Shown: piece after piece, positions 1,561-34,679 of the stretch
Layout of the letters: each line of letters begins with the position of its first letter
Numbering within the stretch: the first letter of the stretch is position 1
Source of the DNA: Nemertoderma westbladi
Lineage: Eukaryota; Animalia; Xenacoelomorpha
NCBI GenBank assembly: GCA_032718475.1
Contig: JAUCBJ010005235.1
Span: forward strand, 1 to 38,542
DNA: 38,542 nt
Reading direction: 5' to 3'
Notes under the pieces: generated by a model
Database searches by the model: none
What the model was told of the DNA's origin: nothing
What the model saw: only the letters and a program-made list of their open reading frames with translations
Position numbers and translations under genes: made by a program

Positions 1561-4500
1561 AATTAGAAGCAGTGGTGTTGGACTAGTTGGAAGTGAACTT
1601 CCATGGTCGATAATGAAAAAAATATATAAAAATCCCTCTAGGAGAAAACTTTGATTTAAAAATATAAGAATTACTGATTATTATTATTGACGTCAGTCAA
1701 ATGTGTGCTACGGAAGTTTATAAGAAAACAAGATTCGTACATCATGAAATAATAAAATAAATACATTGTTAATTCGGTACATTAATTACATCTTAACGTC
1801 CGCAAACAAAAGCAAAACTCCCATTTACCGAAAACGTTCTGCGTATAAGACGAACGTGGGCGAAGGGGAATATGTCCTTCGTTTATTCCGCCCAAATAAA
1901 ACAGCTTCTGAGAAATACGACATTAACAGCGGGGAAACACACGTACATGTCGTCTTGTTAATTTCCATTACAGAAGGTTATTATTTTTTAATGACACACT
2001 TTACATGAGAAGTAGGGGGCAAACAGTGGGGAGCCGTGCTGTAGGCGTCAATTACTGAGATTGTAAGAATTCAAATAGAGCGCACAGTGTTATCATATTG
2101 ACAAAGTATATGGGGGGGGGGGGGGGGGACTAACAACGGCCATATCACCCTCGGGGTAAATAATTTAATTACAACCCAGCTTGACCTATTAATATTTTTA
2201 ATGTTTCGACATAATTATTATTCAATAAAAAGGCCCAGTCTTAGAGAAAACTATAGTAAATAATAATTAAATCCTATGTGTGAGTGAGAGTGATACTATT
2301 TCAAGACCTGGCTCAACTAAAAATAAGGTAAGATATCCGAATGAGTGATTTGAAATCATATTCTAATGAAGGGTTTCATTTCAAGACTATAACTACACAC
2401 CAAGATCTTCGGCACCCAAATCTGCTCTTCAGGGCAACACGATAGGATTTCTGTAAAGTTTTCAGCACATTCTCCCAAATGTGCCTGCCGAAAGGCAATG
2501 ACACCAGTGCAAACGGCAGAGGCGAACAATTTAAAAAGAAACTTAAAGAGTACAGATCAAGTGGGTATCGTTTGAAAACCAATCTCACTGGAGTATAATA
2601 AATACGCCTGTCCCTCTGTGTGGTAAGGTTAATATATTCATTGGCAACTGTAACATGAGCATTCTCGGAGGATAATAAATTCAGATCACTGTGCCCTATA
2701 GTCCATGCACGGCCTTGCTTCTCAAGACATGAATAATAGAAGCTGTTTTCAAGTTATCGCAAGTAACTGAAGAACGTATACTCCGTATTAGATAACTCCT
2801 CAAGGAATATACGCGTTTACGATCCCAACCCATAAACCAATTCCCGCGGATCCGAACACACGAAACCCAAGTTTCTCGTAAGTGGCAGTCGATACGGTTC
2901 CACATCAATTATTAGCTCCCTGATGCGAAGAACGAATGTAGGAGTTTATGATGCACGAAAACTACGGGGATGCGGGATATCTAACCACCCAGATACACAA
3001 CCGACGGATAGCTGGCGATAAGCAATAAATTACCAACAAAAGAAAGCAAGAACCTTATCTTATATAGTCTGGTTGCCTGACGGTAATTAACCCCCGGTAT
3101 TAGCCGGGGAGTCCTTAAACACCTTTATCAGATGTAGGAGACGGTGGAGGGACTTATGAGTGAGTTCCTGGAAAGCTCTCCATTAATATTATACTGCGCG
3201 ATCAATACAACGGGAAACCCAGTGGAGGGGGGTGGAGGGAGGTGGGGGGGGGGGGGGGGGGGGGGGGGGGTGGAGGGAGGTGATTTCGGGATAGAGAGTC
3301 GGAACGCAGCTGGCTGCCGCAGTTGTTATCCATCGCTAATGAAAGGCCGGCCATGCAGAAAGCTGCCCCCTATTGGCTCCAACAAATCATGGCGTATTAA
3401 GAGCTCACAGAATCCTAATGGATCGCAGGTGTCGGATGAATACGAAAATAGTAAGTCGGTAACTCTGTTGGACAGCATTCGAAAAGCAGACGAGGAAGAA
3501 ATAATGCTGGAATGATAGAGGAGGTTTTATGGTTGCCGGATTTATAATCCAAAGGATTATAAGAATGTTCCACGAGATTCATGTTAACTAGTGGTTTTTA
3601 ATTCCACATTTCAATGTCTCAAATATTGTCGCAGAAACTTGACGTGCGTCAAACTTGCGCGAAAACTATTAGCAACAGGGGGGGGGGGGGGGGGGGGAAT
3701 CATATTCCGCCATGGGATAACTGATTTTCGTTGGCGGTATAAATTCAGGCCGTAGGGGAAACTCAAATACACAAAACACCCAAAGTATGCGGTTAAGTCT
3801 GTCATGAACTTCATTCAGTCTAAAGTATAATAATAATTAAACCGATAAAATCACATAATAAGTTCCGTAAAGTGCTTAAAGGTTAAGTTGGAACAATAAA
3901 AATAAATATTATATATAAGAAATATATTTTACAAGAACTAGTTCTCATAAAAGATTCTCAAAAGATCTGCTATTTGTCAGACCTTGTCTATTTCAGCTGT
4001 CTGGTCTCGTTTCACTCGGTCAGTAAACCACTAGTGCTGCCATAGTTTTTAGACACGCCCTTTTACATTGATAAGTTTGATAGGCCATTTTCAGGAAGGA
4101 TTTAACTATATTGACATTGACATCCTTCCGTGCGAGCAGGTGGCGGGGATGGGTAGCAGATTAATAGCATATTCATCAGCGCGCACCGCTACAATGGCGC
4201 CGCTGTAATGGCACTGCTTTCTTCCAACCGGGAACTGCGCTAAATAAAATATACCATCAATAAGTAATTATGTTTACCAAGCGAAGCCCGTTTCCCGCGA
4301 CGCCACCACACACATTATTTCCCCCCGTACAATAAGCCATGATTTCCCCGGAGCATTGGGAACCATTAATTGCATTATTGTGACATCCCAACAATATATT
4401 TACGCATAGCAACGCAGTTTGAAATATATCGACTTTCAATGAAATTCCTAAAATTAACAGACCGACGACGGGCTAGGCCTATAGTCATGGCGTTGACAAT

Positions 4501-5629
4501 AATTAAGTTACTAAAGGCCTCAGCTACAGGCATAGCGGCGCATTGTGCGCCAAAATCGATCTGGGGGCAACACATGCGGAGCGCACAAATAAAATATTAA
4601 TAACGCCGACCAAATACTGTAAGATTAATCAATCACACGAACCATGTCCTCGAACTGGAGGGAAACCTATATGAATTATACATTGAGAGAGAATCCGACC
4701 CGGATAGATAATATACATATCGACGATGCTAAGAGGAATCGATATTGTCGAATTCCCGCTCATTCCCGGGCCCGAAATGTTCCAACACATACTCGAACGC
4801 ATTGAATAATTTTTGAGTAAGATTTTAGTGTAACCATGTCTCAAACAAAAATAACGTGTTAACAATAATATATATTACAGCCCTTGAATAATAAGCGCTG
4901 TATAGAGATCAGCTTCACGTCATAACGGTTTTACGTACATTAATTAATTGTGAAGTATTTAACACTATTTTATTGAAAGTAAATAAGTTTAAATTCGATA
5001 ATATTTACGTTAAAACGAAAGGAGCATATTTTTGCTTTGATTACGGCATGGTGGATCCGGTGGAAGTCACACGTATTATGCTTCGAAATTCTCCAACAAC
5101 CGCAGGACAAATAATTTCCAATTATAAAATCATCGGGTGAAGTCCTAGATAAGAGGAAATTGAAAGAGTTCCAAGAGATAAAGTCGATGCTGGGGGCATA
5201 CAAACCACTCAGCACAAAATGGTTCGTCAACATCAGAAATCAATCAATTTGTAAGAAATAATAAAGAAAGGGGCGTTGACCTTAAGGTCACACACTTACA
5301 CAATGATACGCAACTGTGAACCGCAACCACTTAGTAACTAATCTATGTACAATAACTAACTATATGTACAACGTGAGGGGTGCAGGATATAAATATTAAT
5401 GAGGTTTTTGCTATAGCCTATGGGAACAAATGCAAAATTCATAATTAAAAGTAAAACTCAATATTTTCTCTTAGTGAACACGAATTTATTCATAGAATGG
5501 AATTCAATAAATAATAAATCCTGAATAAAGACTGATGTCCATAAATTTGAAGGAATTGCATATGATATTAATGATATCCGTACTAACGTCAGTGTCAAGT
5601 ATACAGAGAATGTAAAATGTAACGCAGAT

Positions 5630-7125
5630 CTTACTTGGGACAAAGAACAATGACCCCAGTGGAGTAGATTGTGTTCCCCCTGAGGTCTTTAAAATACCTG
5701 AGTGTTTAAAGCTCATCTATCCCATCATAGTAGACATGTACCGAACAACAAGAGTCCCACAAGAAATGAAAACAAATAAGTTGGTGCCAGTTCCCAAGAA
5801 GGGCAACCTAACACTCTATGGTTCTTTTCGGGGAATCTCATTGATCTCGATTGCTGCAAAGCTATACAATAGAATTCTATTAAATCGCATCAGTGATCCC
5901 ATTGAGAGACTGCTCCGTGAAAATCAGAATGGGTTCCGTAAAGGTCGTGGGACCATGGAGCCCATTTTGGCACTTAGAAGGATAATTGAAGAGTTATCAA
6001 AAAAGAAAGACAGGCATCTGGCTGTTATCTTTGTTGACTTCTTCAATGCCTTTGATTCAGTCTCTCGCTCACGTATGTTCAGCAACTTTCATTATATGGG
6101 ATTCCTGATGAAATTATTGCGCAATCAGATAAGTATACGATGGTTCGACAAAATTTGTGTCTACTGTTGATGGTGACACAGAACTATTTGAAGTGTTATG
6201 GGGCGTCCTCCAAGGAGACACACTTGCACCATTCTTGTTCATAATTGTGGTTGACTGTTCTACGCATGTCCTTAGATCATCATAATGATGATGGGGTAAT
6301 GGTAACTCCACCTACTGGCTCCAGAAGTCGAGGAAATCCTGCCAAATACCTAACTGATCTAGACTTTGCTGATGACTTAAGAGTACTCTCAGAATCACTA
6401 GAGGGAGCCCAACGGCTCCTCAGCTCATTAGAACATGCTGCTTCTAGTGTTGGTCTTTTTATTAACTCCAAAAGACCAAAATTTTGACAGTTAACTTTGA
6501 AAGTCCTCGGCAAGTCTCTGACCGGATGAGCATAAGCTCAAAGGATGGTATGCTTAAGCATGTGGACGACTTCTGTTACCTGGGATCATTGATCCGGAAG
6601 TCAGATGAGGACCTTCGAATACGCAAGGGAAAGGGATGGGCAACCTTGAATAGGCTTTCCAGGATTTGGAAGTTACAGAAAATTAATCGGAAACTTAAGG
6701 TCCGATTATTTAGAGCAGCAGTAGTTCCAGTACTCCTCTATGGGAGTCCATGCTGGGCTCTAACTGTCTGAGGATACCAAATCTCTGGATGGCACATTCA
6801 CAAGAATGCTACGCCGGGTTCATTGTGTCAAGTACAATGCACACATCTCCAACCAGACACTATATAACATTGGAGGTGTTTCATTGGATATTATTATTAT
6901 ATATTATTATTATTATAGATTATTATTTCATATATTTCAACATTGGAATGTTTTCGCCGTGAGGACCAGCCAGTGCATAATCTTGTGCTTTGGCAGCCTC
7001 CTGGAGTGAATAAGCATGGTGGATAGCCCATGACTGCGGCGGCGCAATTTTGTCGACAAGCCGGCACAGCATTCTTAAAAATACAGCTGCAATGCAGCAT
7101 GCCGATACTAGTAGTAGTAGTAGTA
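5630..7125 (+). mobile_element. Degenerate RTE-like non-LTR retrotransposon, antisense to mex3
   Basis: PKKGNL...FRGISL, QNGFRKGR, FVDFFNAFDS, GVLQGDTLAPFLF, TDLDFADD, FCYLGS, LLYGSPCW and later NLVLWQP across several frameshifts. (TAG)n tail at ~7109-7125. The 5' boundary is approximate and no TSD was found. Confidence 0.92.
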
Positions 7126-7448
7126 CCCCTCTCCACGGGCTGCGATACGTCACGCCGTCCTCACACGCTACGCTACGCGACTAAAACACAACGCTGATAA
7201 TTATTGTTCGCTCTAAGTATCCATGAAAGTTAGCCGTATAGTAATGCTATTGCTTTACGGCGGCTGAGCTTTATAATGCTATGACGTTTCGTTCGAGATA
7301 ATTATTATGTAGTTACATCCCAAATCGCATCGCAACTAACTAAAGTTATCGCTGGCACCACATCGGCTAATAAGTAACGATAATTTATGGATATTATTAG
7401 CATTGGGTTAAAAAAGTTCGGTTCATCAAATTAATAAAATTAACTTAC

Positions 7449-7634
7449 CTAAAGGGTCTGAGAGTATACGACGGATGGAGGTATGATCCGCTGAGACCGG
7501 AGGTAGACAGGTCCCAGGGGACAGGAGAGGTGTAGTGGAGCCGAGACTATTAGTTCGACGGACCCAGTCCGAGGACTGGGAAGAGAAGTGGGAAGTCGGT
7601 GGTCCCAGGTTGGTGGGACTAAACCCTGAGAAAT
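7449..7634 (-). CDS. mex3: Probable MEX3 coding exon 5 (Ser/Pro-rich)
   Basis: Strong acceptor TTTATTTCCTTCCTTCCAG|AT and donor TTA G|GTAAGT. 186 nt, open, phase 1 to 1. Peptide DFSGFSPTNLGPP...HTSIRRILSDPL. RRILSDP resembles the RRxxSDP motif I recall from vertebrate MEX3B. Confidence 0.8.
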   Translation of the reverse strand: MSQGLVPPTWDHRLPTSLPSPRTGSVELIVSAPLHLSCPLGPVYLRSQRIIPPSVVYSQTL

Positions 7635-7692
7635 CTGGAAGGAAGGAAATAAAGTGTCTATATTCGTGGGTTGGAGAAACAGAAGTGGAGGG

Positions 7693-7850
7693 CAAACAAC
7701 ATTCACGCCCATAAACAACAGTACACTACTACATACATAATTACACGACAACAAACAGCAACAACTGCAGTACACAACAACAAACATCAGTACACGACCA
7801 CAGACATCAGTACACCCACAAACAGTTGTACACGACCACAAACAAGTTGC
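7693..7850. repeat. AC-rich low-complexity tract (UG-rich on the mex3 sense strand) just upstream of the exon 5 acceptor
   Basis: ACAACA/CAGTACAC repeats, including ACATCAGTACAC and ACACGACCACA duplications. Confidence 0.7.
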
Positions 7851-10456
7851 AAAACGTGATAAAAATAGTTTCCTAGTGGTGGGAGGAAAGGCAAAAAAAA
7901 TAATATATTCCAATAAATAACGGGGGGGGGGGGGATTATAGTTACTAATTTACTGTATGAATAAATATAATCCTTAAAACCGTACCACCGACTGTTTAAT
8001 AATACGTTATTTATTGTCTTTTGATGGAATTGGGTATCATAAATCCACCTATGCTGGAATGCCGAGCTAATTATTATTAATGCCATATATTTAATAGTGT
8101 CATTTAAAATAGCAGAATGCTATCATAGTATAATTAATTTTTTGGGAGGTATACTACCCTATGCTATAATAAAAGGTAAATTGTACCTTGGAGAATTATT
8201 ATTGTTGAGAGAGCGAGCGCTGTAGGGTAAATAGCAGGACAGTGCTCAGCTTCGCTTCAGTGGATTTGGGTAAAATAATTACTATGTCTGGAGCCCTCTG
8301 AGACTACAGGTAAAATCTCAAACCCACAGGAAAGCTAAGCAAGTTTGGAAAATATAAAAAGATTGCTTGAGGCTGACAATTCCCAAACACTCGACTACCT
8401 GTCTATGGGGAATGAGGCCTATTCTAGGGTAGGAGACTATAAGTAGAATATGAGGTTTGATTGACAGGGCCTCAAGGTTGCTTACAGATAGGGGATGGGG
8501 TAATAGATAAGCCAGGCAGGAGTAATCGAAGGTGATGGGCAGTGACAGGTTAGAAGATGAGATATGCCGTAAGCAACAAAAATATGTAGGAGAAATGAGT
8601 CATATAATAATAATTCATAAAGTCCGGATTCAAAAATATGTACAGTCCCTCCAATAGTCTGACTCGGGAATTATTTGAAGTTCTGGATTTCCAGGGCATG
8701 CTTTCAACAAAAAGAACATATTGGTTGGTTGGGAACTTGTAATGGTAAATGTTAGATCAATGTGCTCGCCTTGCGCTTGCGCTTAGTTTTATATGAAAAC
8801 AACATAATTTAGTTATGTTGAACAAAAACTTATAGTTGTTTGTTTGTTGAGCTGTCGTGTCCAATGGACGGCACTTATACTTCTTCTGGGCCAAATTGGC
8901 GTATTACCGTGTCCGTCTGTCTGTCAGTCCGACTGCTTGACTGGCTCTGACAATGTAGAGATTTACGGCCATGGGGGGATTTCAAAAAACGAGATTAGAG
9001 TTTAGTTGAGTTTCAGCTCAATATCTAGTGTATTGGAATATACTAAAACTTTATACTAAAGTTTTTTCGACGGCCGAGTTCCCATAACATGTTAAACATA
9101 TTTCAAGACGCCGGCAACGTTGCAATGCAATGAGTGCGTTGCAAATCAATTTGCTCGACTTCCGAGAAACCAGAATTAATCGACCGTAGAATAACATGAT
9201 GACCGTTGCTGAGATGCCAGTGCAGTATAGTAAACACAGACATACAGGCGTGTATGCTGCGTAAATCAATAACATACTCAAAGAAACAATTCCATAACAA
9301 AAAAACATTTCCGGTAAAATCGCGCGAACTAATCAATAAAAATTGTCGACACACACGAAATAAATCACCACGCCAACATTATAATGTAAAAAAATGCTGT
9401 GTGCATCTCGTAATGCGCCCCCTAACGGGTTAATTGAGAACCTAGACTTCACTTACTGTTATAGACAACTCACACGTCGTGAAACGTCAAAGGTTAATCC
9501 AGTGATATAAGGTTAGTTAGTTAGTATGTGCGACAGAGAGAAGGCCTCCCCGGGGTATATAACTATCTCTGTCTCTCTGAGGAAATAAAGTAACCCGTGA
9601 CTAAAAGCCTGGTCGAAACATATTAAGTGCATCGGCCAAATGAATTGGGTTCATTAGTATTGCGGGGGGCGACCGGCGGGGAAATGGAAATGGGCCGAGA
9701 TCACGGCCGTGTCATTCAATCAGGACTAATGGACAATGGCCATACAACGCAAACCAAATGGCAAACTAGATTTACTTTATTGGCAGGCTAAATACCAAGG
9801 GAAAAAATACTTGAAATAGCCCATTCAAGGAAGCGAGGTTGCATCTTTTCATCTATGAAATCCACGCAAGTTCAACAATAAGCTAAAACAAATACGGCCC
9901 GGTGGAATTTTCACTGCGGCAGTATATATAAGGTTAGAATGTAGGTGGGCATCTTACTCAAACTTTTATTCAAGGAGGCTTAATGGAGCGGGAATGACAA
10001 TTAGAGAGAACGCGCCACATCTGAGACCAGAGAGGAACTGCGTTTACTTTAGCCGAAGTTTGATTACATTACAGGCATGGTGGACAGGAAGTAGTTTCAA
10101 TGTGAGCATAAGGCCGACTAAAATAATAATAAGTGGCATTCATTTCCCATATGGCCATTTATACTGAGCGGGTCCGTGGGTGGGGCTATGGGGAGTGAGA
10201 GTTGGTATAAAAGAGTTAAGAGCCTTCTATATGGGAATCCATACAACTATTATTGACAAGCTACAAGCTTTAATGATACATAACGTACGTACACTAACTA
10301 CACTATTTTTATTTTTCGAGGCGTATTTCAAACACCCGGTATGTAATTGGTATAACGAATGATAAAAAAAATCTATGACAAAATCGCTCTTGGATTGAGC
10401 ATTAATAACTATATATATACGAAGTTTAACATAAACCAACCTGCTATCTAAAAAAT

Positions 10457-13400
10457 ATAATAAATACCGTCGGTGCATGTACCTTACCTTCAGTTAAATA
10501 ATAAATACCGTCGGTGCATGTACCTTACCTTCAGTTCAATAATAAATACCGTCGGTGCATGTACCTTACCTTCAGTTCAATAATAAATACCGTCGGTGCA
10601 TGTACCTTACCTTCAGTTCAATAATAAATACCGTCGGTGCATGTACCTTACCTTCAGTTCAATAATAAATACCGTCGGTGCATGTACCTTACCTTCAGTT
10701 CAATAATAAATACCGTCGGTGCATGTACCTTCCTTACCTTCAGTTCAATAATAAATACCGTCGGTGCATGTACCTTACCTTCAGTTCAATAATAAATACC
10801 GTCGGTGCATGTACCTTACCTTCAGTTCAATAATAAATACCGTCGGTGCATGTACCTTACCTTCAGTTCAATAATAAATACCGTCGGTGCATGTACCTTA
10901 CCTTCAGTTCAATAATAAATACCGTCGGTGCATGTACCTTACCTTCAGTACAATAATAAATACCGTCGGTGCATGTACCTTACCTTCAGTTCAATAATAA
11001 ATACCGTCGGTGCATGTACCTTACCTTCAGTACAATAATAAATACCGTCGGTGCATGTACCTTACCTTCAGTTCAATAATAAATACCGTCGGTGCATGTA
11101 CCTTACCTTCAGTTCAATAATAAATACCGTCGGTGCATGTACCTTACCTTCAGTTCAATAATAAATACCGTCGGTGCATGTACCTTCCTTACCTTCAGTT
11201 CAATAATAAATACCGTCGGTGCATGTACCTTACCTTCAGTTCAATAATAAATACCGTCGGTGCATGTACCTTACCTTCAGTTAAATAATAAATACCGTCG
11301 GTGCATGTACCTTACCTTCAGTTCAATAATAAATACCGTCGGTGCATGTACCTTACCTTCAGTTCAATAATAAATACCGTCGGTGCATGTACCTTACCTT
11401 CAGTTCAATAATAAATACCGTCGGTGCATGTACCTTACCTTCAGTTCAATAATAAATACCGTCGGTGCATGTACCTTACCTTCAGTTCAATAATAAATAC
11501 CGTCGGTGCATGTACCTTACCTTCAGTTCAATAATAAATACCGTCGGTGCATGTACCTTCCTTACCTTCAGTTCAATAATAAATACCGTCGGTGCATGTA
11601 CCTTACCTTCAGTTCAATAATAAATACCGTCGGTGCATGTACCTTACCTTCAGTTCAATAATAAATACCGTCGGTGCATGTACCTTACCTTCAGTTCAAT
11701 AATAAATACCGTCGGTGCATGTACCTTACCTTCAGTTCAATAATAAATACCGTCGGTGCATGTACCTTACCTTCAGTTCAATAATAAATACCGTCGGTGC
11801 ATGTACCTTACCTTCAGTTCAATAATAAATACCGTCGGTGCATGTACCTTACCTTCAGTTCAATAATAAATACCGTCGGTGCATGTACCTTCCTTACCTT
11901 CAGTTCAATAATAAATACCGTCGGTGCATGTACCTTACCTTCAGTTCAATAATAAATACCGTCGGTGCATGTACCTTACCTTCAGTTAAATAATAAATAC
12001 CGTCGGTGCATGTACCTTACCTTCAGTTCAATAATAAATACCGTCGGTGCATGTACCTTACCTTCAGTTCAATAATAAATACCGTCGGTGCATGTACCTT
12101 ACCTTCAGTTCAATAATAAATACCGTCGGTGCATGTACCTTACCTTCAGTTCAATAATAAATACCGTCGGTGCATGTACCTTACCTTCAGTTCAATAATA
12201 AATACCGTCGGTGCATGTACCTTACCTTCAGTTCAATAATAAATACCGTCGGTGCATGTACCTTCCTTACCTTCAGTTCAATAATAAATACCGTCGGTGC
12301 ATGTACCTTACCTTCAGTTCAATAATAAATACCGTCGGTGCATGTACCTTACCTTCAGTTCAATAATAAATACCGTCGGTGCATGTACCTTACCTTCAGT
12401 TCAATAATAAATACCGTCGGTGCATGTACCTTACCTTCAGTTCAATAATAAATACCGTCGGTGCATGTACCTTACCTTCAGTACAATAATAAATACCGTC
12501 GGTGCATGTACCTTACCTTCAGTTCAATAATAAATACCGTCGGTGCATGTACCTTACCTTCAGTACAATAATAAATACCGTCGGTGCATGTACCTTACCT
12601 TCAGTTCAATAATAAATACCGTCGGTGCATGTACCTTACCTTCAGTTCAATAATAAATACCGTCGGTGCATGTACCTTACCTTCAGTTCAATAATAAATA
12701 CCGTCGGTGCATGTACCTTCCTTACCTTCAGTTCAATAATAAATACCGTCGGTGCATGTACCTTACCTTCAGTTCAATAATAAATACCGTCGGTGCATGT
12801 ACATTACCTTCAGTACAATAATAAATACCGTCGGTGCATGTACCTTACCTTCAGTTCAATAATAAATACCGTCGGTGCATGTACCTTACCTTCAATTCAA
12901 TAATAAATACCGTCGGTGCATGTACCTTACCTTCAGTTCAATAATAAATACCGTCGGTGCATGTACCTTCCTTACCTTCAGTTCAATAATAAATACCGTC
13001 GGTGCATGTACCTTACCTTCAGTTCAATAATAAATACCGTCGGTGCATGTACCTTCCTTACCTTCAGTTCAATAATAAATACCGTCGGTGCATGTACCTT
13101 ACCTTCAGTTCAATAATAAATACCGTCGGTGCATGTACCTTACCTTCAGTTCAATAATAAATACCGTCGGTGCATGTACCTTACCTTCAGTTCAATAATA
13201 AATACCGTCGGTGCGTGTACCTTACCTTCAGTACAATAATAAATACCGTCGGTGCATGTACCTTACCTTCAGTTCAATAATAAATACCGTCGGTGCATGT
13301 ACCTTCCTTACCTTCAGTTCAATAATAAATAACGTCGGTGCATGTACCTTACCTTCAGTTCAATAATAAATACCGTCGGTGCATGTACCTTACCTTCAGT

Positions 13401-16400
13401 TCAATAATAAATACCGTCGGTGCATGTACCTTCCTTACCTTCAGTTCAATAATAAATACCGTCGGTGCATGTACCTTACCATCAGTTCAATAATAAATAC
13501 CGTCGGTGCATGTACCTTACCTTCAGTTCAATAATAAATACCGTCGGTGCATGTACCTTCCTTACCTTCAGTTCAATAATAAATACCGTCGGTGCATGTA
13601 CCTTAACTTCAGTTCAATAATAAATACCGTCGGTGCATGTACCTTCCTTACCTTCAGTTCAATAATAAATACCGTCGGTGCATGTACCTTACCTTCAGTT
13701 CAATAATAAATACCGTCGGTGCATGTACCTTACCTTCAGTTCAATAATAAATACCGTCGGTGCATGTACCGTACCTTCAGTTCAATAATAAATACCGTCG
13801 GTGCGTGTACCTTACCTTCAGTACGATAATAAATACCGTCGGTGCATGTACCTTACCTTCAGTTCAATAATAAATACCGTCGGTGCATGTACCTTCCTTA
13901 CCTTCAGTTCAATAATAAATACCGTCGGTGAATGTACCTTACCTTCAGTTCAATAATAAATACCGTCGGTGCATGTACCTTACCTTCAGTTCAATAATAA
14001 ATACCGTCGGTGCATGTACCTTCCTTACCTTCAGTTCAATAATAAATACCGTCGGTGCATGTACCTTACCTTCAGTTCAATAATAAATACCGTCGGTGCA
14101 TGTACCTTACCTTCAGTTCAATAATAAATACCGTCGGTGCATGTACCTTACCTTCAGTACAATAATAAATACCGTCGGTGCATGTACCTTCCTTACCTTC
14201 AGTTCAATAATAAATACCGTCGGTGCATGTACCTTCAGTTCAATAATAAATACCGCCGGTGCGTGTACCTTACCTTCAGTACGATAATAAATACCGTCGG
14301 TGCATGTACCTTACCTTCAGTTCAATAATAAATACCGTCGGTGCATGTACCTTCCTTACCTTCAGTTCAATAATAAATACCGTCGGTGCATGTACCTTAC
14401 CTTCAGTTCAATAATAAATACCGTCGGTGCATGTACCTTACCTTCAGTTCAATAATAAATACCGTCGGTGCATGTACCTTCCTTACCTTCAGTTCAATAA
14501 TAAATACCGTCGGTGCATGTACCTTACCTTCAGTTCAATAATAAATACCGTCGGTGCATGTACCTTACCTTCAGTTCAATAATAAATACCGTCGGTGCAT
14601 GTACCTTACCTTCAGTTCAATAATAAATACCGTCGGTGCATGTACCTTCCTTACCTTCAGTTCAATAATAAATACCGTCGGTGCATGTACCTTACCTTCA
14701 GTTCAATAATAAATACCGTCGGTGCATGTACCTTACCTTCAGTTCAATAATAAATACCGTCGGTGCATGTACCTTACCTTCAGTTCAATAATAAATACCG
14801 TCGGTGCATGTACCTTACCTTCAGTTCAATAATAAATACCGTCGGTGCATGTACCTTCCTTACCTTCAGTTCAATAATAAATACCGTCGGTGCATGTACC
14901 TTACCTTCAGTTCAATAATAAATACCGCCGGTGCATGTAACTTACCTTCAGTTCAATAATAAATACCGTCGGTGCATGTACCTTACCTTCAGTTCAATAA
15001 TAAATACCGTCGGTGCATGTACCTTACCTTCAGTTCAATAATAAATACCGTCGGTGCATGTACCTTACCTTCAGTTCAATAATAAATACCGTCGGTGCAT
15101 GTACCTTACCTTCAGTTCAATAATAAATACCGTCGGTGCATGTACCTTACCTTCAGTTCTATAATAAATACCGTCGGTGCATGTACCTTACCTTCAGTTC
15201 AATAATAAATACCGTCGGTGCATGTACCTTACCTTCAGTTCAATAATAAATACCGTCGGTGCATGTACCTTACCTTCAGTACAATAATAAATACCGTCGG
15301 TGCATGTACCTTACCTTCAGTTCAATAATAAATACCGTCGGTGCATGTACCTTACCTTCAGTACAATAATAAATACCGTCGGTGCATGTACCTTACCTTC
15401 AGTTCAATAATAAATACCGTCGGTGCATGTACCTTACCTTCAGTTCAATAATAAATACCGTCGGTGCATGTACCTTCCTTACCTTCAGTTCAATAATAAA
15501 TACCGTCGGTGCATGTACCTTACCTTCAGTTCAATAATAAATACCGCCGGTGCATGTACCTTACCTTCAGTTCAATAATAAATACCGTCGGTGCATGTAC
15601 CTTACCTTCAGTTCAATAATAAATACCGTCGGTGCATGTACCTTACCTTCAGTTCAATAATAAATACCGTCGGTGCATGTACCTTACCTTCAGTTCAATA
15701 ATAAATACCGTCGGTGCATGTACCTTACCTTCAGTTCAATAATAAATACCGTCGGTGCATGTACCTTACCTTCAGTTCTATAATAAATACCGTCGGTGCA
15801 TGTACCTTACCTTCAGTTCAATAATAAATACCGTCGGTGCATGTACCTTACCTTCAGTTCAATAATAAATACCGTCGGTGCATGTACCTTACCTTCAGTA
15901 CAATAATAAATACCGTCGGTGCATGTACCTTACCTTCAGTTCAATAATAAATACCGTCGGTGCATGTACCTTACCTTCAGTACAATAATAAATACCGTCG
16001 GTGCATGTACCTTACCTTCAGTTCAATAATAAATACCGTCGGTGCATGTACCTTACCTTCAGTTCAATAATAAATACCGTCGGTGCATGTACCTTACCTT
16101 CAGTTCAATAATAAATACCGTCGGTGCATGTACCTTACCTTCAGTTCAATAATAAATACCGTCGGTGCATGTACCTTACCTTCAGTACAATAATAAATAC
16201 CGTCGGTGCATGTACCTTACCTTCAGTTCAATAATAAATACCGTCGGTGCATGTACCTTACCTTCAGTTCAATAATAAATACCGTCGGTGCATGTACCTT
16301 ACCTTCAGTACAATAATAAATACCGTCGGTGCATGTACCTTACCTTCAGTACAATAATAAATACCGTCGGTGCATGTACCTTACCTTCAGTACAATAATA

Positions 16401-18446
16401 AATACCGTCGGTGCATGTACCTTACCTTCAGTACAATAATAAATACCGTCGGTGCATGTACCTTACCTTCAGTACAATAATAAATACCGTCGGTGCATGT
16501 ACCTTACCTTCAGTACAATAATAAATACCGTCGGTGCATGTACCTTACCTTCAGTTCAATAATAAATACCGTCGGTGCATGTACCTTACCTTCAGTTCAA
16601 TAATAAATACCGTCGGTGCATGTACCTTACCTTCAGTACAATAATAAATACCGTCGGTGCATGTACCTTACCTTCAGTTCAATAATAAATACCGTCGGTG
16701 CATGTACCTTACCTTCAGTACAATAATAAATACCGTCGGTGCATGTACCTTACCTTCAGTACAATAATAAATACCGTCGGTGCATGTACCTTACCTTCAG
16801 TACAATAATAAATACCGTCGGTGCATGTACCTTACCTTCAGTACAATAATAAATACCGTCGGTGCATGTACCTTACCTTCAGTACAATAATAAATACCGT
16901 CGGTGCATGTACCTTACCTTCAGTTCAATAATAAATACCGTCGGTGCATGTACCTTACCTTCAGTTCAATAATAAATACCGTCGGTGCATGTACCTTACC
17001 TTCAGTTCAATAATAAATACCGTCGGTGCATGTACCTTACCTTCAGTTCAATAATAAATACCGTCGGTGCATGTACCTTACCTTCAGTTCAATAATAAAT
17101 ACCGTCGGTGCATGTACCTTACCTTCAGTTCAATAATAAATACCGTCGGTGCATGTACCTTACCTTCAGTTCAATAATAAATACCGTCGGTGCATGTACC
17201 TTACCTTCAGTTCAATAATAAATACCGTCGGTGCATGTACCTTACCTTCAGTACAATAATAAATACCGTCGGTGCATGTACCTTACCTTCAGTACAATAA
17301 TAAATACCGTCGGTGCATGTACCTTACCTTCAGTACAATAATAAATACCGTCGGTGCATGTACCTTACCTTCAGTACAATAATAAATACCGTCGGTGCAT
17401 GTACCTTACCTTCAGTACAATAATAAATACCGTCGGTGCATGTACCTTACCTTCAGTTCAATAATAAATACCGTCGGTGCATGTACCTTACCTTCAGTAC
17501 AATAATAAATACCGTCGGTGCATGTACCTTACCTTCAGTTCAATAATAAATACCGTCGGTGCATGTACCTTACCTTCAGTACAATAATAAATACCGTCGG
17601 TGCATGTACCTTACCTTCAGTACAATAATAAATACCGTCGGTGCATGTACCTTACCTTCAGTACAATAATAAATACCGTCGGTGCATGTACCTTACCTTC
17701 AGTTCAATAATAAATACCGTCGGTGCATGTACCTTACCTTCAGTACAATAATAAATACCGTCGGTGCATGTACCTTACCTTCAGTTCAATAATAAATACC
17801 GTCGGTGCATGTACCTTACCTTCAGTTCAATAATAAATAGCGTCGGTGCATGTACCTTACCTTCAATTCAATAATAAATACCGTCGGTGCATGTACCTTA
17901 CCTTCAGTTCAATAATAAATAGCGTCGGTGCATGTACCTTACCTTCAGTTCAATAATAAATACCGTCGGTGCATGTACCTTACCTTCAGTTCAATAATAA
18001 ATACCGTCGGTGCATGTACCTTACCTTCAGTTCAATAATAAATACCGTCGGTGCATGTACCTTACCTTCAGTACAATAATAAATACCGTCGGTGCATGTA
18101 CCTTACCTTCAGTACAATAATAAATACCGTCGGTGCATGTACCTTACCTTCAGTTCAATAATAAATACCGTCGGTGCATGTACCTTACCTTCAGTTCAAT
18201 AATAAATACCGTCGCTGCATGTACCTTACCTTCAGTTCAATAATAAATACCGTCGGTGCATGTACCTTACCTTCAGTACAATAATAAATACCGTCGGTGC
18301 ATGTACCTTACCTTCAGTTCAATAATAAATACCGTCGGTGCATGTACCTTACCTTCAGTTCAATAATAAATACCGTCGGTGCATGTACCTTACCTTCAGT
18401 TCAATAATAAATACCGTCGGTGCATGTACCTTACCTTCAGTTCAAT
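10457..18446. repeat. 41-bp tandem satellite, roughly 190 near-identical copies, inside the mex3 intron between exons 4 and 5
   Basis: Unit AATAATAAATACCGTCGGTGCATGTACCTTACCTTCAGTTC repeated head-to-tail for ~8 kb. Variants are 45-bp units (extra CCTT), CAGTAC for CAGTTC and rare substitutions. Confidence 0.99.
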
Positions 18447-18469
18447 GCCAATGTCAAACAGATATCTAA
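18435..18469 (-). other. Candidate 35-nt micro-exon whose 3' end seeds the 41-bp satellite
   Basis: The 86-nt intron after exon 4 has a CACTAAC branch point and TTTATTTAG acceptor. The exon reads (G)TT AGA TAT CTG TTT GAC ATT GGC ATT GAA CTG AAG (VRYLFDIGIELK), then GTAAGG. A second AG 4 nt downstream would give DICLTLALN-stop. No transcript evidence. Confidence 0.4.
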
Positions 18470-18555
18470 CTAAATAAACCTATGTTAGTGTACATACAAA
18501 TATACTGTAGTAGGTGTGTGTGTACTGTTGTAGTTGTGCACATTAATTAACTTAC

Positions 18556-18783
18556 CGGCTTCGTTGAAACCAAAGGACTGTGTGTGGTGTCCGGAATGGC
18601 CCCCACTGCTCCCAGGGGACGAGAAGTAGGCCATGGGATGATTTGGATGGTCTGGGGGTGAGCCTTGTGGTTGAAACAAGGTTGCTGAGGTACCGTTGTC
18701 ACCTGGTATATTCAAACCAGCCTTGAACAACAATGCGGAGATGATATTGTTATCTGTGTTGTTTGAATTCAAACCATTCATAT
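18556..18783 (-). CDS. mex3: Probable MEX3 coding exon 4 (low-complexity region after KH2)
   Basis: Acceptor ATATTACAG|AT ATG and donor GCC G|GTAAGT. 228 nt, open, phase 1 to 1, matching exon 3. S/P/G/H-rich peptide NMNGLNSNN...QSFGFNEA. GC content is higher than the flanks. Confidence 0.8.
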
Positions 18784-18922
18784 CTGTAATATTATTGGTA
18801 ATAATAAAAAAATATAGAAAGTTAAGTTATCGGTAGTAAATAAACAAAAAAATATTTGTTGAAATTTGATCTACGTGTCAAAGATAACAAGTTTCAAAAA
18901 TATAAATAATAGTTTCACCGCG

Positions 18923-21340
18923 CCAATACTAGACAATGCCTGGACCGAAGCAATACTGGACAATATCTATGTACCAATACTGGACAATATCTATGTACCA
19001 ATACTGGACAATATCTATGTACCAATACTGGACAATATCTATGTACCAATACTGGACAATATCTAAGTACCAACACTGGACAATATATGTACCAATACTG
19101 GACAATATCTATGTACCAATACTGGACAATATCCATGTACCAATACTGGACAATATCTATGTACAAATACTGGACAATATCTATGTACCAATACTGGACA
19201 ATATCTATGTACCAATTACTGGACAATATCTATGTACCAATACTGGACAATATCTATGTACCAATACTGGACAATATCTATGTATCAATACTGGACAATA
19301 TCTATGTACCAATACTGGACAATATCTATTTGGACCGTACCAATACTGGACAATATCTATTTGGACCGTACCAATACTGGACAATATCTATCTATGTACC
19401 AATACTGGACAATATCTATTTGGACGTACCAATACTGGACAATATCTATCTATGTACCAATACTGGACAATATCTATCTATGTACCAATACTGGACAATA
19501 TCTGTACCAATACTGGACAATATCTAAGTACCAACACTGGACAATATATGTACCAATACTGGACAATATCTATGTACCAATACTGGACAATATCCATGTA
19601 CCAATACTGGACAATATCTATGTACAAATACTGGACAATATCTATGTACCAATACTGGACAATATCTATGTACCAATTACTGGACAATATCTATGTACCA
19701 ATACTGGACAATATCTATGTACCAATACTGGACAATATCTATGTATCAATACTGGACAATATCTATGTACCAATACTGGACAATATCTATTTGGACCGTA
19801 CCAATACTGGACAATATCTATTTGGACCGTACCAATACTGGACAATATCTATTTGGACCGTACCAATACTGGACAATATCTATCTATGTACCAATACTGG
19901 ACAATATCTATTTGGACGTACCAATACTGGACAATATCTATCTATGTACCAATACTGGACAATATCTATCTATGTACCAATACTGGACAATATCTATGTA
20001 CCAATACTGGACAATATCTAAGTACCAACACTGGACAATATATGTACCAATACTGGACAATATCTATGTACCAATACTGGACAATATCCATGTACCAATA
20101 CTGGACAATATCTATGTACAAATACTGGACAATATCTATGTACCAATACTGGACAATATCTATGTACCAATTACTGGACAATATCTATGTACCAATACTG
20201 GACAATATCTATGTACCAATACTGGACAATATCTATGTATCAATACTGGACAATATCTATGTACCAATACTGGACAATATCTATTTGGACCGTACCAATA
20301 CTGGACAATATCTATTTGGACCGTACCAATACTGGACAATATCTATTTGGACCGTACCAATACTGGACAATATCTATCTATGTACCAATACTGGACAATA
20401 TCTATCTATGTACCAATACTGGACAATATCTATCTATGTACCAATACTGGACAATATCTATCTATGTACCAATACCGGACAATATCTATGTACCAATACT
20501 GGACAATATCTATGTATCAATACTGGACAATATCTATGTACCAATACTGGACAATATCTATTTGGACCGTACCAATACTGGACAATATCTATTTGGACCG
20601 TACCAATACTGGACAATATCTATTTGGACCGTACCAATACTGGACAATATCTATCTATGTACCAATACTGGACAATATCTATTTGGACGTACCAATACTG
20701 GACAATATCTATCTATGTACCAATACTGGACAATATCTATCTATGTACCAATACTGGACCATATCTATGTACCAATACTGGACAATATCTAAGTACCAAC
20801 ACTGGACAATATATGTACCAATACTGGACAATATCTATGTACCAATACTGGACAATATCCATGTACCAATACTGGACAATATCTATGTACAAATACTGGA
20901 CAATATCTATGTACCAATACTGGACAATATCTATGTACCAATTACTGGACAATATCTATGTACCAATACTGGACAATATCTATGTACCAATACTGGACAA
21001 TATCTATGTATCAATACTGGACAATATCTATGTACCAATACTGGACAATATCTATTTGGACCGTACCAATACTGGACAATATCTATTTGGACCGTACCAA
21101 TACTGGACAATATCTATTTGGACCGTACCAATACTGGACAATATCTATCTATGTACCAATACTGGACAATATCTATCTATGTACCAATACTGGACAATAT
21201 CTATCTATGTACCAATACTGGACAATATCTATCTATGTACCAATACCGGACAATATCTATTTGGACCGTACCAATACTGGACAATATCTATCTATGTACC
21301 AATACTGGACAATATCTATCTATGTACCAATACCGGACAT
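18923..21340. repeat. 24-bp-based minisatellite with 22-30 bp variants and higher-order repeats
   Basis: Core TACCAATACTGGACAATATCTATG, with variant linkers CTATCTATG and CTATTTGGACCG. The landmark ATCTAAGTACCAACAC recurs at 19061, 19522, 20016 and 20787. Confidence 0.99.
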
Positions 21341-26136: not shown

Positions 26137-26437
26137 TGCCTAGATCTTTGGTTATCCCGTTGCTATGGAAGTCGTTGACAACGTCCCCTGACAACACCCC
26201 GTTCCCCCCGACTACGCCATTAGGAACGGCCGAGTCCAGTCCCGTTCGCATCGCTATATAGGATTCGATCTCGGCCCGGGCGCGGTCTACGTTGCTAGGC
26301 AACCCGGATATCTCGAAGACCGGGTCTTTGTCCCGGGAAGGGGTCACTATGTAGGTGTTGGACTGCTGTTGGATTCTCTTAATTGTGGCGCCTTTGGGGC
26401 CGACGACCAAGCCAACAACACGTAGCGGCACAGTGAC
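26137..26437 (-). CDS. mex3: MEX3 coding exon 3 (KH2)
   Basis: Acceptor ATTTATTTTAG|GTC. Translates [66 protein letters not shown]...NDFHSNG, with the GPKG GxxG loop. Donor GGCA|GTGAGT. 301 nt, phase 0 to 1. Confidence 0.97.
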
Positions 26438-26529
26438 CTAAAATAAATTGAAAAAGGTTTAAGTGACAAAAACTATAATTATCAAAAAACACGATTTATT
26501 TTCTTAATAATCAGACGATATACATTTAC

Positions 26530-27910
26530 TACTACTACTAGGTCGAGCGAACTCGGACAGTGGAAATGAGATCCTTCCAGGCTTCCCGATTCTCCATAGT
26601 TGTCGCAATTTCGTTTCTCCCAAGTTCAGTATTTCAAGTTGATCTATATATGTTATGGCCGGTCGTCCACGACTACGCTTTCCATGAGTTGGTTGCCAGA
26701 GAAGTAGATCTGGTATGACCTCGTCTTTACTTCGCCAGCAGTGCCAACTGAATCTTAATCTGCGTCCACGGAGGGTGGTTGATACAGGTGGTATTGTACC
26801 ATAAAGCTCGGCGTTTGTCATGTGTTGTCTCCAGCAGATGTTTAGGGCTGCCCTTAGTAGACTTGTGTAGCAACCATCAATTCGTTGTTCAAGTGATTTA
26901 GTCAGTGTCCAGGTCTCGCCCCCGTATAAAAATACACTTTCCACTGTGGCTCGAAAGAACTTAGTCTTCGGGTGCCTGGAGAGATCTGATTTCCAGATGG
27001 TATCCATTTTTGATAGAGCTACCCAAGCCTTTGCTTTCCTAACTTCTCTATGTCCTTTTTGCTACTCTCTATCCATGATCCTAGGTACTGGAAGTCGTCA
27101 ACCTTCCTTAGTTGATTATTATCAATGGTTGTCAAGTTTCCATCAACATTAAAGGTCATGAATTCGGTCTTTGTAGCATTTATATGCAATCCAACCTCCT
27201 TAGCAGCCCTCTCCACTTTATTTAGTAGAAGCTGTGCATCTGCTAGCGTATTAGAGAGCAGGGCGATGTCATCCGCAAAGTCGGTGTCTGTGACTGTAGT
27301 TGCCGGATATCTACTACTTCTGCGTTCTTGAAGTGTGAATCCCAGGTCTTCACCCTTTGTGGCTGTCCTCATTGCGTAATCCAGTACAATTACAAATAGT
27401 AATGGTGCTAATGTGTCACCTTGCAGTACGCCAGCCAGGATTGAGAAAAACTCAGTTTCACCATCTGGTGAGAGTACCTGCGCTTCTGTGTCACAATATA
27501 ACAATCCAATGCCAGCAACAATTACTTCTGGTATTCCATAAGCTCTTAGGATTTCAAGCATTTTGCCTCTATTGATGGAGTCGAATGCCTTCTTGAAGTC
27601 CACAAAAGTCATGACTGCGGGGAGATTCTTTGACTTAATTCCTTCAATCAGTCTCCGTAGTGCAAGTATCTGAGCTATTGTTGATCTACTTGGTCTAAAT
27701 CCGTTTTGGCTCTTACGCAGTAGTTTCTCTATGTGAGGCTTCTAATCCTATATAGAATCATTTTATTGTATATTTTGGCAGCTACCACAAGCAGACAGAT
27801 CCCACGATAGTGTGTTGGTATACCGAGGTCTCCTTTCTTGGGGAGAGGCTTTAGTTGACCTTTAGTCCAAATTGGTGGTGGCTTTTCCCCTTTTAACATC
27901 CGGTTATATC
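26530..27910 (-). mobile_element. 5'-truncated, frameshifted RTE-like non-LTR retrotransposon (RT plus C-terminal region) in mex3 intron 2
   Basis: RT motifs PKKGDL...YRGICL, FVDFKKAFDS, GVLQGDTLAPLLF, DTDFADD, FQYLGS, LYGGETW and RSRGRP spread over three broken ORFs. Has a (TAG)n tail. Perfect direct repeat CGATATACATTTAC at 26516-26529 and 27911-27924. Confidence 0.95.
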
Positions 27911-27961
27911 CGATATACATTTACGATATAATAATTATAATATGAAAGATGAAACACTCAC

Positions 27962-28182
27962 CTTTGTGGTTATTTGTCCCGGTATGTTTGAGTTGGGAGA
28001 CGGCATGCTATTCTTCCGTTGCGCCCGTATCTGGCTGAAGTGTTCCGCCGCCAATAGTATCTCTTTCTCTACATCGTGGACGGCTTCCGGTCTCCCGGTC
28101 ACTTTGAACGCCGGCTCTTCGCCACGCACTGGCGTCTTGATGTATGTGTTGGTTTTGGCGCGAAGTGCTTTGATCTTACACC
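27962..28182 (-). CDS. mex3: MEX3 coding exon 2 (rest of KH1 and linker)
   Basis: Acceptor ...CCCCTTCCTCCCGCAG|GG TGT completes the split Gly. Translates [35 protein letters not shown]...[14 protein letters not shown]...PGQITTK. Donor AAG|GTGAGT. 221 nt, phase 1 to 0. Confidence 0.97.
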
Positions 28183-32360: not shown

Positions 32361-32580
32361 CTTGTCTCCCAACAATTTCTGCAACATGTTCTGATGTGGG
32401 AACCTTCACGGTTATTGTTGTGTTCTGGCTTTTACATTTGAGTGGGTGGTTATATGTGATAGTTTCATCATCAGCACCGAGTCCTAGCGAGGACAATGTG
32501 TCAGCGAACGAAACAGGATGATCGGCAAAGTCTAGAGCACCGTTTGTGATTGATTCGGGTGGGAACAACGAGGACGGCAT
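32361..32580 (-). CDS. mex3: MEX3 RNA-binding protein, first coding exon (N-terminus and start of KH1)
   Basis: Translates MPSSLF...KSQNTTITVKVPTSEHVAEIVGRQG. MPSSL and VPxSEHVAEIVGRQG are characteristic of MEX3. Ends CAAG|GTTAGT, a phase-1 donor at 32360. Confidence 0.95.
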
Positions 32581-33970: not shown

Positions 33971-34679
33971 GGTAAAACGAAGTTAGATCCTGCAAGGCCT
34001 GACTTTGATGAACTTAGATCTTTCCGAACTTAGGTCCTATGTATGCGAACGTAGATCCTACCTAGGTGAACTTAGATCCTACCTAGGTAATAAACTTAGA
34101 TCCTAACTTGGTGAACTTAGATCCCAGTTTATCCTATTAAAGCCATTGGTAATCATCATCCTAATCGTGAAGCGAACTTGGATCCCACGTTAAAGCAAAG
34201 CGAACTTAGATCTTAGGTGAATTTAGATCCCAATTTATACAAATTCCTTAGCACACGCTAGAGGATAAGCGAACTTAGATCCCACGTGTCGTGTACTTTG
34301 CGTTTAAAGTAGTTGCGATCCCGATCAGTGACTCACCAACAAACTACAATTTGCCAATTTAGGCCTATAGCTAATTCGTTGCATTGTATTATGGTGGCTA
34401 TGGCTAAGTTCGCTTCCCTTCACACAGACACAATAACACAGCTACGGCCTACGGTACAGCAAAATATGCAAGGTGGGATCTAAGTTCGTATGTTTAGGAT
34501 CTAAGTTCCTATGGGAAGGATCTAAGTTCGTATGGGAAGGATCTAAGTTCCTATGGGAAGGATCTAAGCTCCTATGGGAAGGATCTAAGTTCGTATGGGA
34601 AGGATCTAAGTTCCCCAAGATCTAACAGTCTAAGTTCGTTCAGGATATAAGGTCCTCTAGGATCTAAAGCCGGGGAACC
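33971..34679. mobile_element. Foldback/MULE-like non-autonomous element, 709 bp, 9-bp TSD
   Basis: GTTCCAATT at 33962-33970 and 34680-34688. Imperfect termini GGT...TTAGATCCT. Many GAACTTAGATCC motifs in the left arm and inverted GGATCTAAGTTC motifs in the right arm, including a 21-bp tandem run at ~34497-34615. Confidence 0.85.

What the first reader, a model, noticed from the sequence alone, without database searches (positions are those of the whole stretch)
10441..18480. An 8-kb satellite built from a splice junction: ~190 tandem 5' splice donors in mex3
Seen: on the sense (minus) strand the unit is ATTGAACTGAAG|GTAAGGTACATGCACCGACGGTATTTATT. The array starts inside unique sequence at 18446, so its first 12 nt are the end of a candidate micro-exon (IELK) preceded by a CACTAAC branch point and AG. 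Each register of the unit therefore reads GT...AG: a 41-nt intron-shaped cassette with AG|GTAAG at every junction. Known: AG|GT junctions are the signature of recursive (ratchet) splice sites, and tandem duplication of AGGT proto-splice sites is a proposed route to intron gain. Inference: the pre-mRNA carries ~190 U1 snRNP sites that could act as a decoy, a recursive-splicing ladder or a copy-number-tuned splicing control. Use of any internal donor would read KVRYMHRRYLLLN-stop, producing an NMD-type product. It may equally be a neutral slippage expansion that happened to start at a donor.
Basis: partly seen in the sequence, partly recalled or inferred. Interest (0 to 1): 0.85.

Follow-up and report, generated by a model that had tools for sequence, protein, structure and literature searches.

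The report
Skipped splice-donor repeat in mex3 intron
In an animal's mex3 gene a 41-base piece holding a splice signal is repeated 193 times inside one intron, but the one RNA assembly seen splices straight over it, so it is likely a harmless, oversized relative of the "mirage" repeats known from lancelets and humans, possibly grown from a rarely used stop-introducing mini-exon.

Summary
The array is real: 193 units at 10457-18446, 188 with AG|GTAAG, in mex3 intron 4. Its words and upstream border are also in a second individual's DNA. A spliced 4,577-nt contig joins exon 4 (ends 18556) directly to exon 5 (starts 7634), so the main mRNA uses no repeat donor (one RNA sample). The ladder reading is weak: the unit's acceptor is AAG with no branch motif, and donor bases are not protected from mutation. 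The variant pattern is that of an ordinary minisatellite. The upstream 31/35/45-nt candidate exon has a branch motif, TAG acceptors and a strong donor, and every version stops or frameshifts. Contigs drop rare isoforms, so a minor poison exon stays open (about 0.4). Closest known: lancelet 'mirages' and the F7/CBS donor VNTRs. The scan found this kind before on other DNA: 11 notes in this genome (unchecked), described as built from their gene's own junctions. What differs here is that the main mRNA skips the seed donor.

The parts
10457..18446 (-). 41-bp minisatellite, 193 units, 188 with AG|GTAAG on the sense strand; lies inside mex3 intron 4
   Evidence: unit words and upstream border in DNA runs of two samples
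18429..18437 (-). First (seed) donor AAG|GTAAGG, GT at 18434; U1 pairing -10.0 kcal/mol, within the range of the five real donors (-5.7 to -12.6)
   Evidence: not used by the spliced contig
18435..18479 (-). Candidate skipped micro-exon, three possible starts (18479, 18469, 18465 = 45, 35, 31 nt); every form gives an early stop or a frameshift
   Evidence: inclusion not seen and not testable with contigs
18484..18490 (-). Branch-point-like CACTAAC, 16-20 nt before the two distal TAG acceptors; its CTAAC core is unchanged in the two S2 contigs although 5 changes fall in 18479-18494
18556..18783 (-). mex3 exon 4 (228 nt), phase 1 at both ends; joined to exon 3 and exon 5 in RNA; 3 of 4 SNPs synonymous
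7449..7634 (-). mex3 exon 5 (186 nt), directly follows exon 4 in the spliced contig
7635..18555 (-). mex3 intron 4, 10,921 nt (2,972 nt if the array were one unit); removed whole in the observed mRNA
26137..26437 (-). mex3 exon 3, second KH domain; its end joins exon 4 in RNA
27962..28182 (-). mex3 exon 2 (part of first KH domain), borders predicted from sequence
32361..32580 (-). mex3 first coding exon, borders predicted from sequence
   Evidence: hit to a MEX3B-like protein, E 1.9e-4

Best explanation
The array is a local minisatellite of 193 copies of one donor-bearing 41-mer inside mex3 intron 4, the observed mRNA removes it whole by joining exon 4 to exon 5, and it is likely a passenger whose internal donors stay silent. 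Shown: the array, the gene structure and the exon 4-exon 5 join in one RNA sample. Inferred origin: a first duplication by slippage (the array ends in a 2-nt overlap) at the donor of a skipped, stop-introducing micro-exon-like piece, then growth by block duplication or unequal exchange. Inferred silence: a donor is used only when it closes a defined exon. Copies 2-193 have no good acceptor in front of them, and in the F7 array only the most upstream of identical donors is chosen. The first copy closes only a weak-acceptor, non-coding candidate exon that the main transcript skips.
For: One X4 contig (4,577 nt, depth 184) holds exon 4 at record 3524-3751 and exon 5 at 3336-3524, with loose ends equal to exon 5's start and exon 3's end; the direct join is in frame and open. 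The unit acceptor is AAG with no YTRAY motif in 60 nt, whereas 4 of 4 real acceptors are YAG. 5 of 16 distinct substitutions hit the 9-nt donor (3.5 expected; P for depletion 0.88), and both indel types lie in it. Variants are polarised (B: 30 of 35 in the first half; C: 16 of 20 in the second), and blocks of 18, 17 and 12 units recur. No 12-mer of the unit occurs elsewhere in the window, and the only loose ends on unit words in 3 DNA runs are this locus's own flank. Precedent: identical repeated donors normally stay silent in F7, LMNB2 and PDGF (PMC1557585, abstract and introduction), and mirages do not disturb splicing (PMC3087553 and PMC3902484 passages).
Against: Only one RNA sample, kept as contigs that drop rare variants; nascent RNA was not seen. 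The donor is as strong as real ones (3 of 1,264 intronic GTs outside arrays match it). It has a branch motif and YAG upstream, which only 2 of 23 intronic GTRAG pseudo-donors have, so the seed may be a used exon. In the 6-16 and CBS arrays two pseudo-sites are used as well. The unit's pyrimidine count (10 of 17) is no lower than exon 4's real acceptor (9 of 17; others 14, 16, 16).
Confidence: 0.8

Rival explanations
1. Compatible with a passenger array, not exclusive of it: the first donor belongs to a real minor poison exon (31, 35 or 45 nt, 76-90 nt after exon 4's donor). It would be included in some tissues or stages and send the mRNA to decay; the 35-nt form would instead give a KH-only, RING-less protein. 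The array would then be a true mirage of that exon.
For: Complete architecture: CTAAC at -16/-20, TAG acceptors, strong donor. The branch+YAG pattern occurs at 85 of 791 intronic positions and 2 of 23 pseudo-donors, and AG|GTRAG occurs once in 20,969 intronic nt, so the combination is rare by chance. All three forms stop or frameshift; the 35-nt form stops at the last three bases of exon 5. The CTAAC core and both distal AGs are unchanged in two S2 contigs. Unchecked notes say arrays in this genome grow from real junctions (a lead only).
Against: The only spliced contig skips it. The acceptor is weak (9 of 17 pyrimidines). 0 of 4 real acceptors have CTRAC within 60 nt, so the motif is not this gene's norm. 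The proximal AG is lost in one S2 contig. No related species was found to test conservation.
Confidence: 0.4
2. The array itself regulates mex3: about 190 U1-binding sites act as a decoy or silencer, and their number tunes exon 4-5 splicing, micro-exon inclusion or premature polyadenylation.
For: 188 donors of real-site strength lie on the sense strand. Repeat length can associate with splicing in humans (PMC10078293, listing and passages). Contig depth hints that the second sample has fewer copies (weak).
Against: Donor bases are not protected. Normal splicing gives an abundant contig. An unrelated 2.4-kb array without a strong donor lies in the next intron. Known arrays of this kind are tolerated.
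Confidence: 0.08
3. Recursive-splicing ladder or intron-gain intermediate: each AG|GT is a ratchet point, or each 41-nt register is an intron.
For: The letters AG|GT stand at every junction, and a second donor follows 41 nt later, which resembles the roughly 50-nt cryptic RS-exon of fly ratchet points (PMC8605326 passages). The final mRNA would look the same, so the contig cannot exclude it.
Against: The acceptor is AAG after a purine-rich stretch, with no branch motif; that ratchet acceptors need YAG and a pyrimidine tract is recalled, not from a call. Ratchet points are described as ultraconserved and in long introns, whereas this intron would be 3.0 kb without the array and its donors mutate freely. 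The Rogers model needs a duplicated exonic segment with the peptide unchanged (PMC4974935 passages), but this array lies inside an existing intron.
Confidence: 0.03
4. Assembly artefact, or a copy of a dispersed satellite or transposon family unrelated to this locus.
For: No long read spanning the array was seen. Most border contigs reach only 29-30 letters into the array, below the tool's 31-letter rule for bridging.
Against: Unit-to-unit contigs have depth 4,043-4,446 (X1), 1,729-1,812 (X2) and 644-775 (X3) against unique flank contigs of 8-57. An X3 contig bridges the upstream border with 53 letters in the array, and the 45-nt variant is also in X3. No foreign flank is attached to unit words. 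No Rfam match.
Confidence: 0.02

Closest known systems
Lancelet 'mirage' minisatellites (Adh3, globins BflGb6/BflGb9, troponin C, PGBD5); PMC3087553 and PMC3902484, matching passages read
   Same: Head-to-tail copies of a piece carrying a splice signal, unit within the 10-160 bp range, normal mRNA undisturbed.
   Different: Mirages span a used exon border; here the main mRNA skips the seed donor. There are 193 copies, against 2-7 for the globin and PGBD5 cases in those passages.
Human donor-spanning VNTRs: F7 intron 7 (37 bp, 5-9 copies), CBS intron 13, 6-16 intron 2, LMNB2, PDGF intron 4; PMC1557585, abstract and introduction read
   Same: Identical 5' pseudo-sites repeated down an intron and mostly silent.
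   Different: There the first copy is the authentic donor; arrays have 5-26 copies.
Ratchet points / recursive splice sites; PMC8605326, passages read
   Same: AG|GT juxtaposition with a second donor a short way downstream.
   Different: Ratchet points are single conserved sites in long introns; here the acceptor half is poor and the sites are unconstrained copies.
Intron gain by tandem duplication of AGGT (Rogers model); PMC4974935, passages read
   Same: Tandem duplication of an AGGT-holding segment.
   Different: The duplicated piece is not coding exon in the observed mRNA, and no new intron results.

Membership tests
Mirage / junction-spanning minisatellite | Head-to-tail minisatellite whose unit holds a splice signal | tested here: met
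   193 units, 188 with AG|GTAAG
Mirage / junction-spanning minisatellite | First unit spans an authentic (used) exon-intron boundary | tested here: inconclusive
   The main spliced contig skips 18435; a minor exon cannot be seen in contigs. Filed as 'works like', not as a proven member.
Mirage / junction-spanning minisatellite | Normal splicing is undisturbed | tested here: met
   In-frame exon 3-4-5 joins in one RNA sample
Mirage / junction-spanning minisatellite | Length instability between haplotypes | tested here: inconclusive
   Depth per window copy is 31 (X1), 13 (X2) and 5 (X3) against flank contigs of 15-43, 8-57 and 19-25; the tool warns that depth is no copy number
Ratchet point / recursive splice site | Functional acceptor (YAG, pyrimidine tract, branch site; recalled) abutting the donor | tested here: not met
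   AAG, no YTRAY within 60 nt; real acceptors 4 of 4 YAG. The pyrimidine count alone (10 of 17) does not separate it from exon 4's acceptor.
Ratchet point / recursive splice site | Site strongly conserved | tested here: not met
   Within the array 5 of 16 substitutions hit the donor, 3.5 expected; no other species available
Ratchet point / recursive splice site | Splicing intermediates or saw-tooth coverage | not testable with these tools
   Only contigs; no nascent RNA
Intron gain by tandem AGGT duplication | Duplicated segment is exonic and the peptide is unchanged | tested here: not met
   The array lies within intron 4 of the observed mRNA; all entry frames stop or shift
Poison (NMD-coupled) exon | Inclusion creates a premature stop or frameshift | tested here: met
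   31- and 45-nt forms stop inside the exon; the 35-nt form shifts the frame and stops at the end of exon 5
Poison (NMD-coupled) exon | Included in some transcripts and raised by NMD block | not testable with these tools
   No raw RNA reads offered
Poison (NMD-coupled) exon | Conserved across species | not testable with these tools
   No close relative found; no genome held
Dispersed satellite or mobile-element repeat | Same unit at many loci | tested here: not met
   No other flank on unit words in 3 DNA runs, none elsewhere in the window; contig level only

The most novel reading that the evidence does not exclude
This is a mirage grown on a hidden poison micro-exon of an RNA-binding gene. 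The array marks an exon that annotation would miss, and its variable copy number (about 190 here, perhaps four to five times fewer in another individual) sets how often the exon is included, and so tunes MEX3 dose or the share of a RING-less form. Even without tuning, such 'orphan' arrays would test whether mirages are seeded by donor sequence or by real spliceosome use.
Probability: 0.07. Interest if true: 0.7.

Novelty: new variant of a known kind. Interest (0 to 1): 0.3.

Why it matters
As it stands it shows that an intron can carry about 190 strong decoy donors over 8 kb and still splice correctly, far beyond the 5-26 copies of the human cases read here. The kind is known and seems common in this genome. 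The useful twist is that the main mRNA skips the seed donor. If the seed is a real minor exon, arrays can reveal hidden poison exons. If it is never used, donor-like sequence alone seeds mirages. Either result bears on the unexplained origin of mirages (called unclear in PMC3087553).

Tried and rejected
No genome is held for this window, so no genome-wide count was possible. The run search listed 6 runs and no holder on record as RNA; X4, labelled 'DNA?', turned out to be spliced. X4 shows no cover over 18365-18544 or 9153-10540; lack of cover in contigs is not counted as evidence. A 25-nt unit pattern found 0 matches in metagenome contigs, and the scan's index had 0 look-alikes and 0 notes near this place. 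Exon 4 found no homologue (47 candidates, none at E 0.1 or better), and the profile-free scan gave 2 repetitive multi-stretch hits that I did not pursue. Exon 1 gave one distant hit. The organism was therefore not identified and orthologues could not be compared. Rfam: 0 matches. No RING motif lies in the three minus-strand frames. A search for a second small exon restoring the frame after the 35-nt form gave 1 weak 7-nt candidate at 8334-8328, which I rejected; a 7-nt piece at 10447-10441 with a weak GT fits by arithmetic only. Folding three units gave no clear masking of the donor. One search had two real donors off by one base and an unconstrained duplex; one search corrected both and its values are used. 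No MaxEnt-type splice model was on hand, so U1 pairing energy with a recalled motif stood in. Literature: searches showed no listing for a mirage on a skipped or poison exon, or for a poison exon in mex3. Only titles and abstract starts were seen for most, the library lacks most subscription papers (the original Adh3 mirage paper was not read), and supplements were not opened.
Full report
Observation. TRF finds a 41-bp array of 193 copies at 10457-18446. Unit-by-unit parsing gives 193 units plus a 2-nt leftover: 117 consensus, 35 with one A>T, 20 of 45 nt (a 4-base insertion in the donor region) and 21 rarer ones. 188 keep AG|GTAAG on the minus strand (motif counts). CACTAAC (18490-18484) and three AGs (ending 18480, 18470, 18466) lie just upstream. 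No 12-letter word of the unit occurs elsewhere in the window.

Host gene. The minus strand carries mex3: KH domains in exons 2 and 3, best hits MEX3 proteins at about 60-80% identity, and exon 1 hits a MEX3B-like protein. Exons are 32580-32361, 28182-27962, 26437-26137, 18783-18556 and 7634-7449; the first two are predicted from sequence. The RING exon is not in the window, and the spliced contig runs on for 3,335 nt past exon 5, likely beyond coordinate 1. No close relative was found, so the animal remains unnamed.

Is it real and local? Six runs were listed and four laid. In the DNA runs X1 (sample S1, possibly the source), X2 and X3 (both sample S2), unit contigs, including ones crossing a unit-unit junction, have depths of 4,043-4,446, 1,729-1,812 and 644-775, against 8-57 for unique flank contigs near the array. 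An X3 contig bridges the upstream border with 53 letters inside the array. The other border contigs end 29-30 letters (one 11) inside it, as 31-mer contigs do at a repeat, which is short of the tool's bridging rule. The 45-nt variant is also in X3. The only loose ends on unit words are this locus's downstream flank (X1, X2). So it is neither an artefact nor, at contig level, dispersed. Depth per window copy is 31, 13 and 5. Against flanks of 19-25 this hints at a four- to five-fold shorter array in X3, but the tool warns that depth is no copy number and X1 and X2 are uneven.

Is the donor used? X4 is labelled 'DNA?' but is spliced. One 4,577-nt contig of depth 184 covers 18556-18783 at record positions 3524-3751, with loose ends matching the start of exon 5 and the end of exon 3. 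The same record covers 7447-7635 at positions 3336-3524. There is no room for a micro-exon, and the direct join is in frame and open. The DNA runs show the intron continuous with exon 4, so the join is not a DNA form. Contigs drop rare variants, so minor use is neither shown nor excluded.

How good are the signals? With in-register U1 pairing (motif recalled) the unit donor scores -10.0 kcal/mol; the five real donors score -6.7, -12.6, -5.7, -9.3 and -10.5. Three of 1,264 intronic GTs outside the arrays are as strong, and 48 of 10,000 circularised random 41-mers carry one. So the donor is strong and unusual. As an acceptor the unit is poor: AAG, purine-rich just before it, with no YTRAY within 60 nt, while all four real acceptors are YAG. 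Against my reading, its pyrimidine count (10 of 17) is not below exon 4's (9 of 17). Donor positions are not protected: 5 of 16 distinct substitutions fall in the 9 donor bases (3.5 expected), and both indel types lie there. Variants are polarised along the array, and blocks of 18, 17 and 12 units recur, the usual trace of minisatellite turnover (PMC3087553 passages describe the same for mirages).

The candidate micro-exon. The three acceptors give 45, 35 or 31 nt, 76-90 nt after exon 4's donor. The 45- and 31-nt forms stop inside the exon. Extending exon 4 to the seed donor also meets a stop (ORF 18485-18826). A branch motif plus YAG at exon distance occurs at 85 of 791 intronic positions and at 2 of 23 GTRAG pseudo-donors, so strong donor plus this architecture is rare by chance. 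Against it: none of the four real acceptors has CTRAC within 60 nt, the acceptor is weak, and five changes fall in 18479-18494 in S2, one removing the proximal AG, though the CTAAC core and the distal AGs are kept (too few sites to test). I put a real minor exon at about 0.4.

Mechanism. Shown: the array, the gene, and the exon 4-exon 5 join. Inferred: a slippage duplication at a donor-like site, growth by block duplication, and silence of internal copies because none closes a defined exon and because, among identical donors, the most upstream is chosen (F7; PMC1557585 abstract and introduction). I give the passenger reading 0.8, a regulating array 0.08, a ladder 0.03 and artefact or dispersed repeat 0.02. 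The poison-exon reading is an add-on to the first.

Comparison. Junction-spanning minisatellites are known in human F7, CBS, 6-16, LMNB2 and PDGF, and as 'mirages' in lancelets. This array works like them, but the defining feature, a used border, is inconclusive, so I do not file it as a proven member. It fails the ratchet-point acceptor and conservation tests and the Rogers intron-gain test. The scan's notes (16 rows, 12 distinct notes of the 19 for this genome) include 11 on splice-junction arrays in other genes of this genome, described as built from their gene's own exon borders. They are unchecked AI notes. They gave me the word 'mirage' and pointed me to two papers that I then read in passages (PMC3087553 had already appeared in my own search). 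They raised my odds for the minor-exon rival, and they are not counted as support.

Verdict. A real, locus-specific, oversized mirage-like minisatellite that the main mex3 mRNA skips, likely neutral. New variant of a known kind only in that the seed donor is skipped. Interest 0.3.

Noticed in passing
window 18951-21339: A second, unrelated minisatellite (20-24 bp units, about 2.4 kb, higher-order period 494) in intron 3, ending 168 nt before exon 4's acceptor. It has acceptor-like CAG/TAG words but no strong donor, and does not copy a used junction. It creates long spurious ORFs on the plus strand.
   Followed up: partly
window 10457-18446, plus strand: Every unit carries AATAAA on the antisense strand (193 copies), none on the sense strand.
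   Followed up: no
window 27019-27920 and 26504-27061 (minus); 5616-7160 (plus): Two decayed reverse-transcriptase (LINE-like) fragments in mex3 introns 2 and 5 (Pfam RVT_1). The one at 5616-7160 belongs to a very high-copy family that also has cover in the RNA run.
   Followed up: partly
window 7960-10340: Intron stretch with little variation: an X2 contig differs at 1 of 2,381 letters and X3 contigs at 11 of about 2,470, while the 154 nt next to the array differ at 6 letters and 5 gaps. It may hold a conserved non-coding element, or merely be a shared haplotype.
   Followed up: no
window 10443-10456 and 10447-10441: The array ends in a T-rich stretch and TAG, so a single-unit ancestor would read as a 40-nt GT...AG piece followed by 7 nt and a weak GT; probably chance.
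   Followed up: partly
window 7449-32580: This mex3 has at least five coding introns; vertebrate mex3 genes have far fewer (recalled, not from a call), which suggests lineage-specific intron gain.
   Followed up: no
window 29635-29640: A lone pseudo-donor AAG|GTAAGG of the same strength in intron 1, with no array and no branch+YAG upstream; a natural control.
   Followed up: yes
window 34025-34614 and 37145-38235: Clusters of short 10-23 bp tandem repeats upstream of mex3.
   Followed up: no
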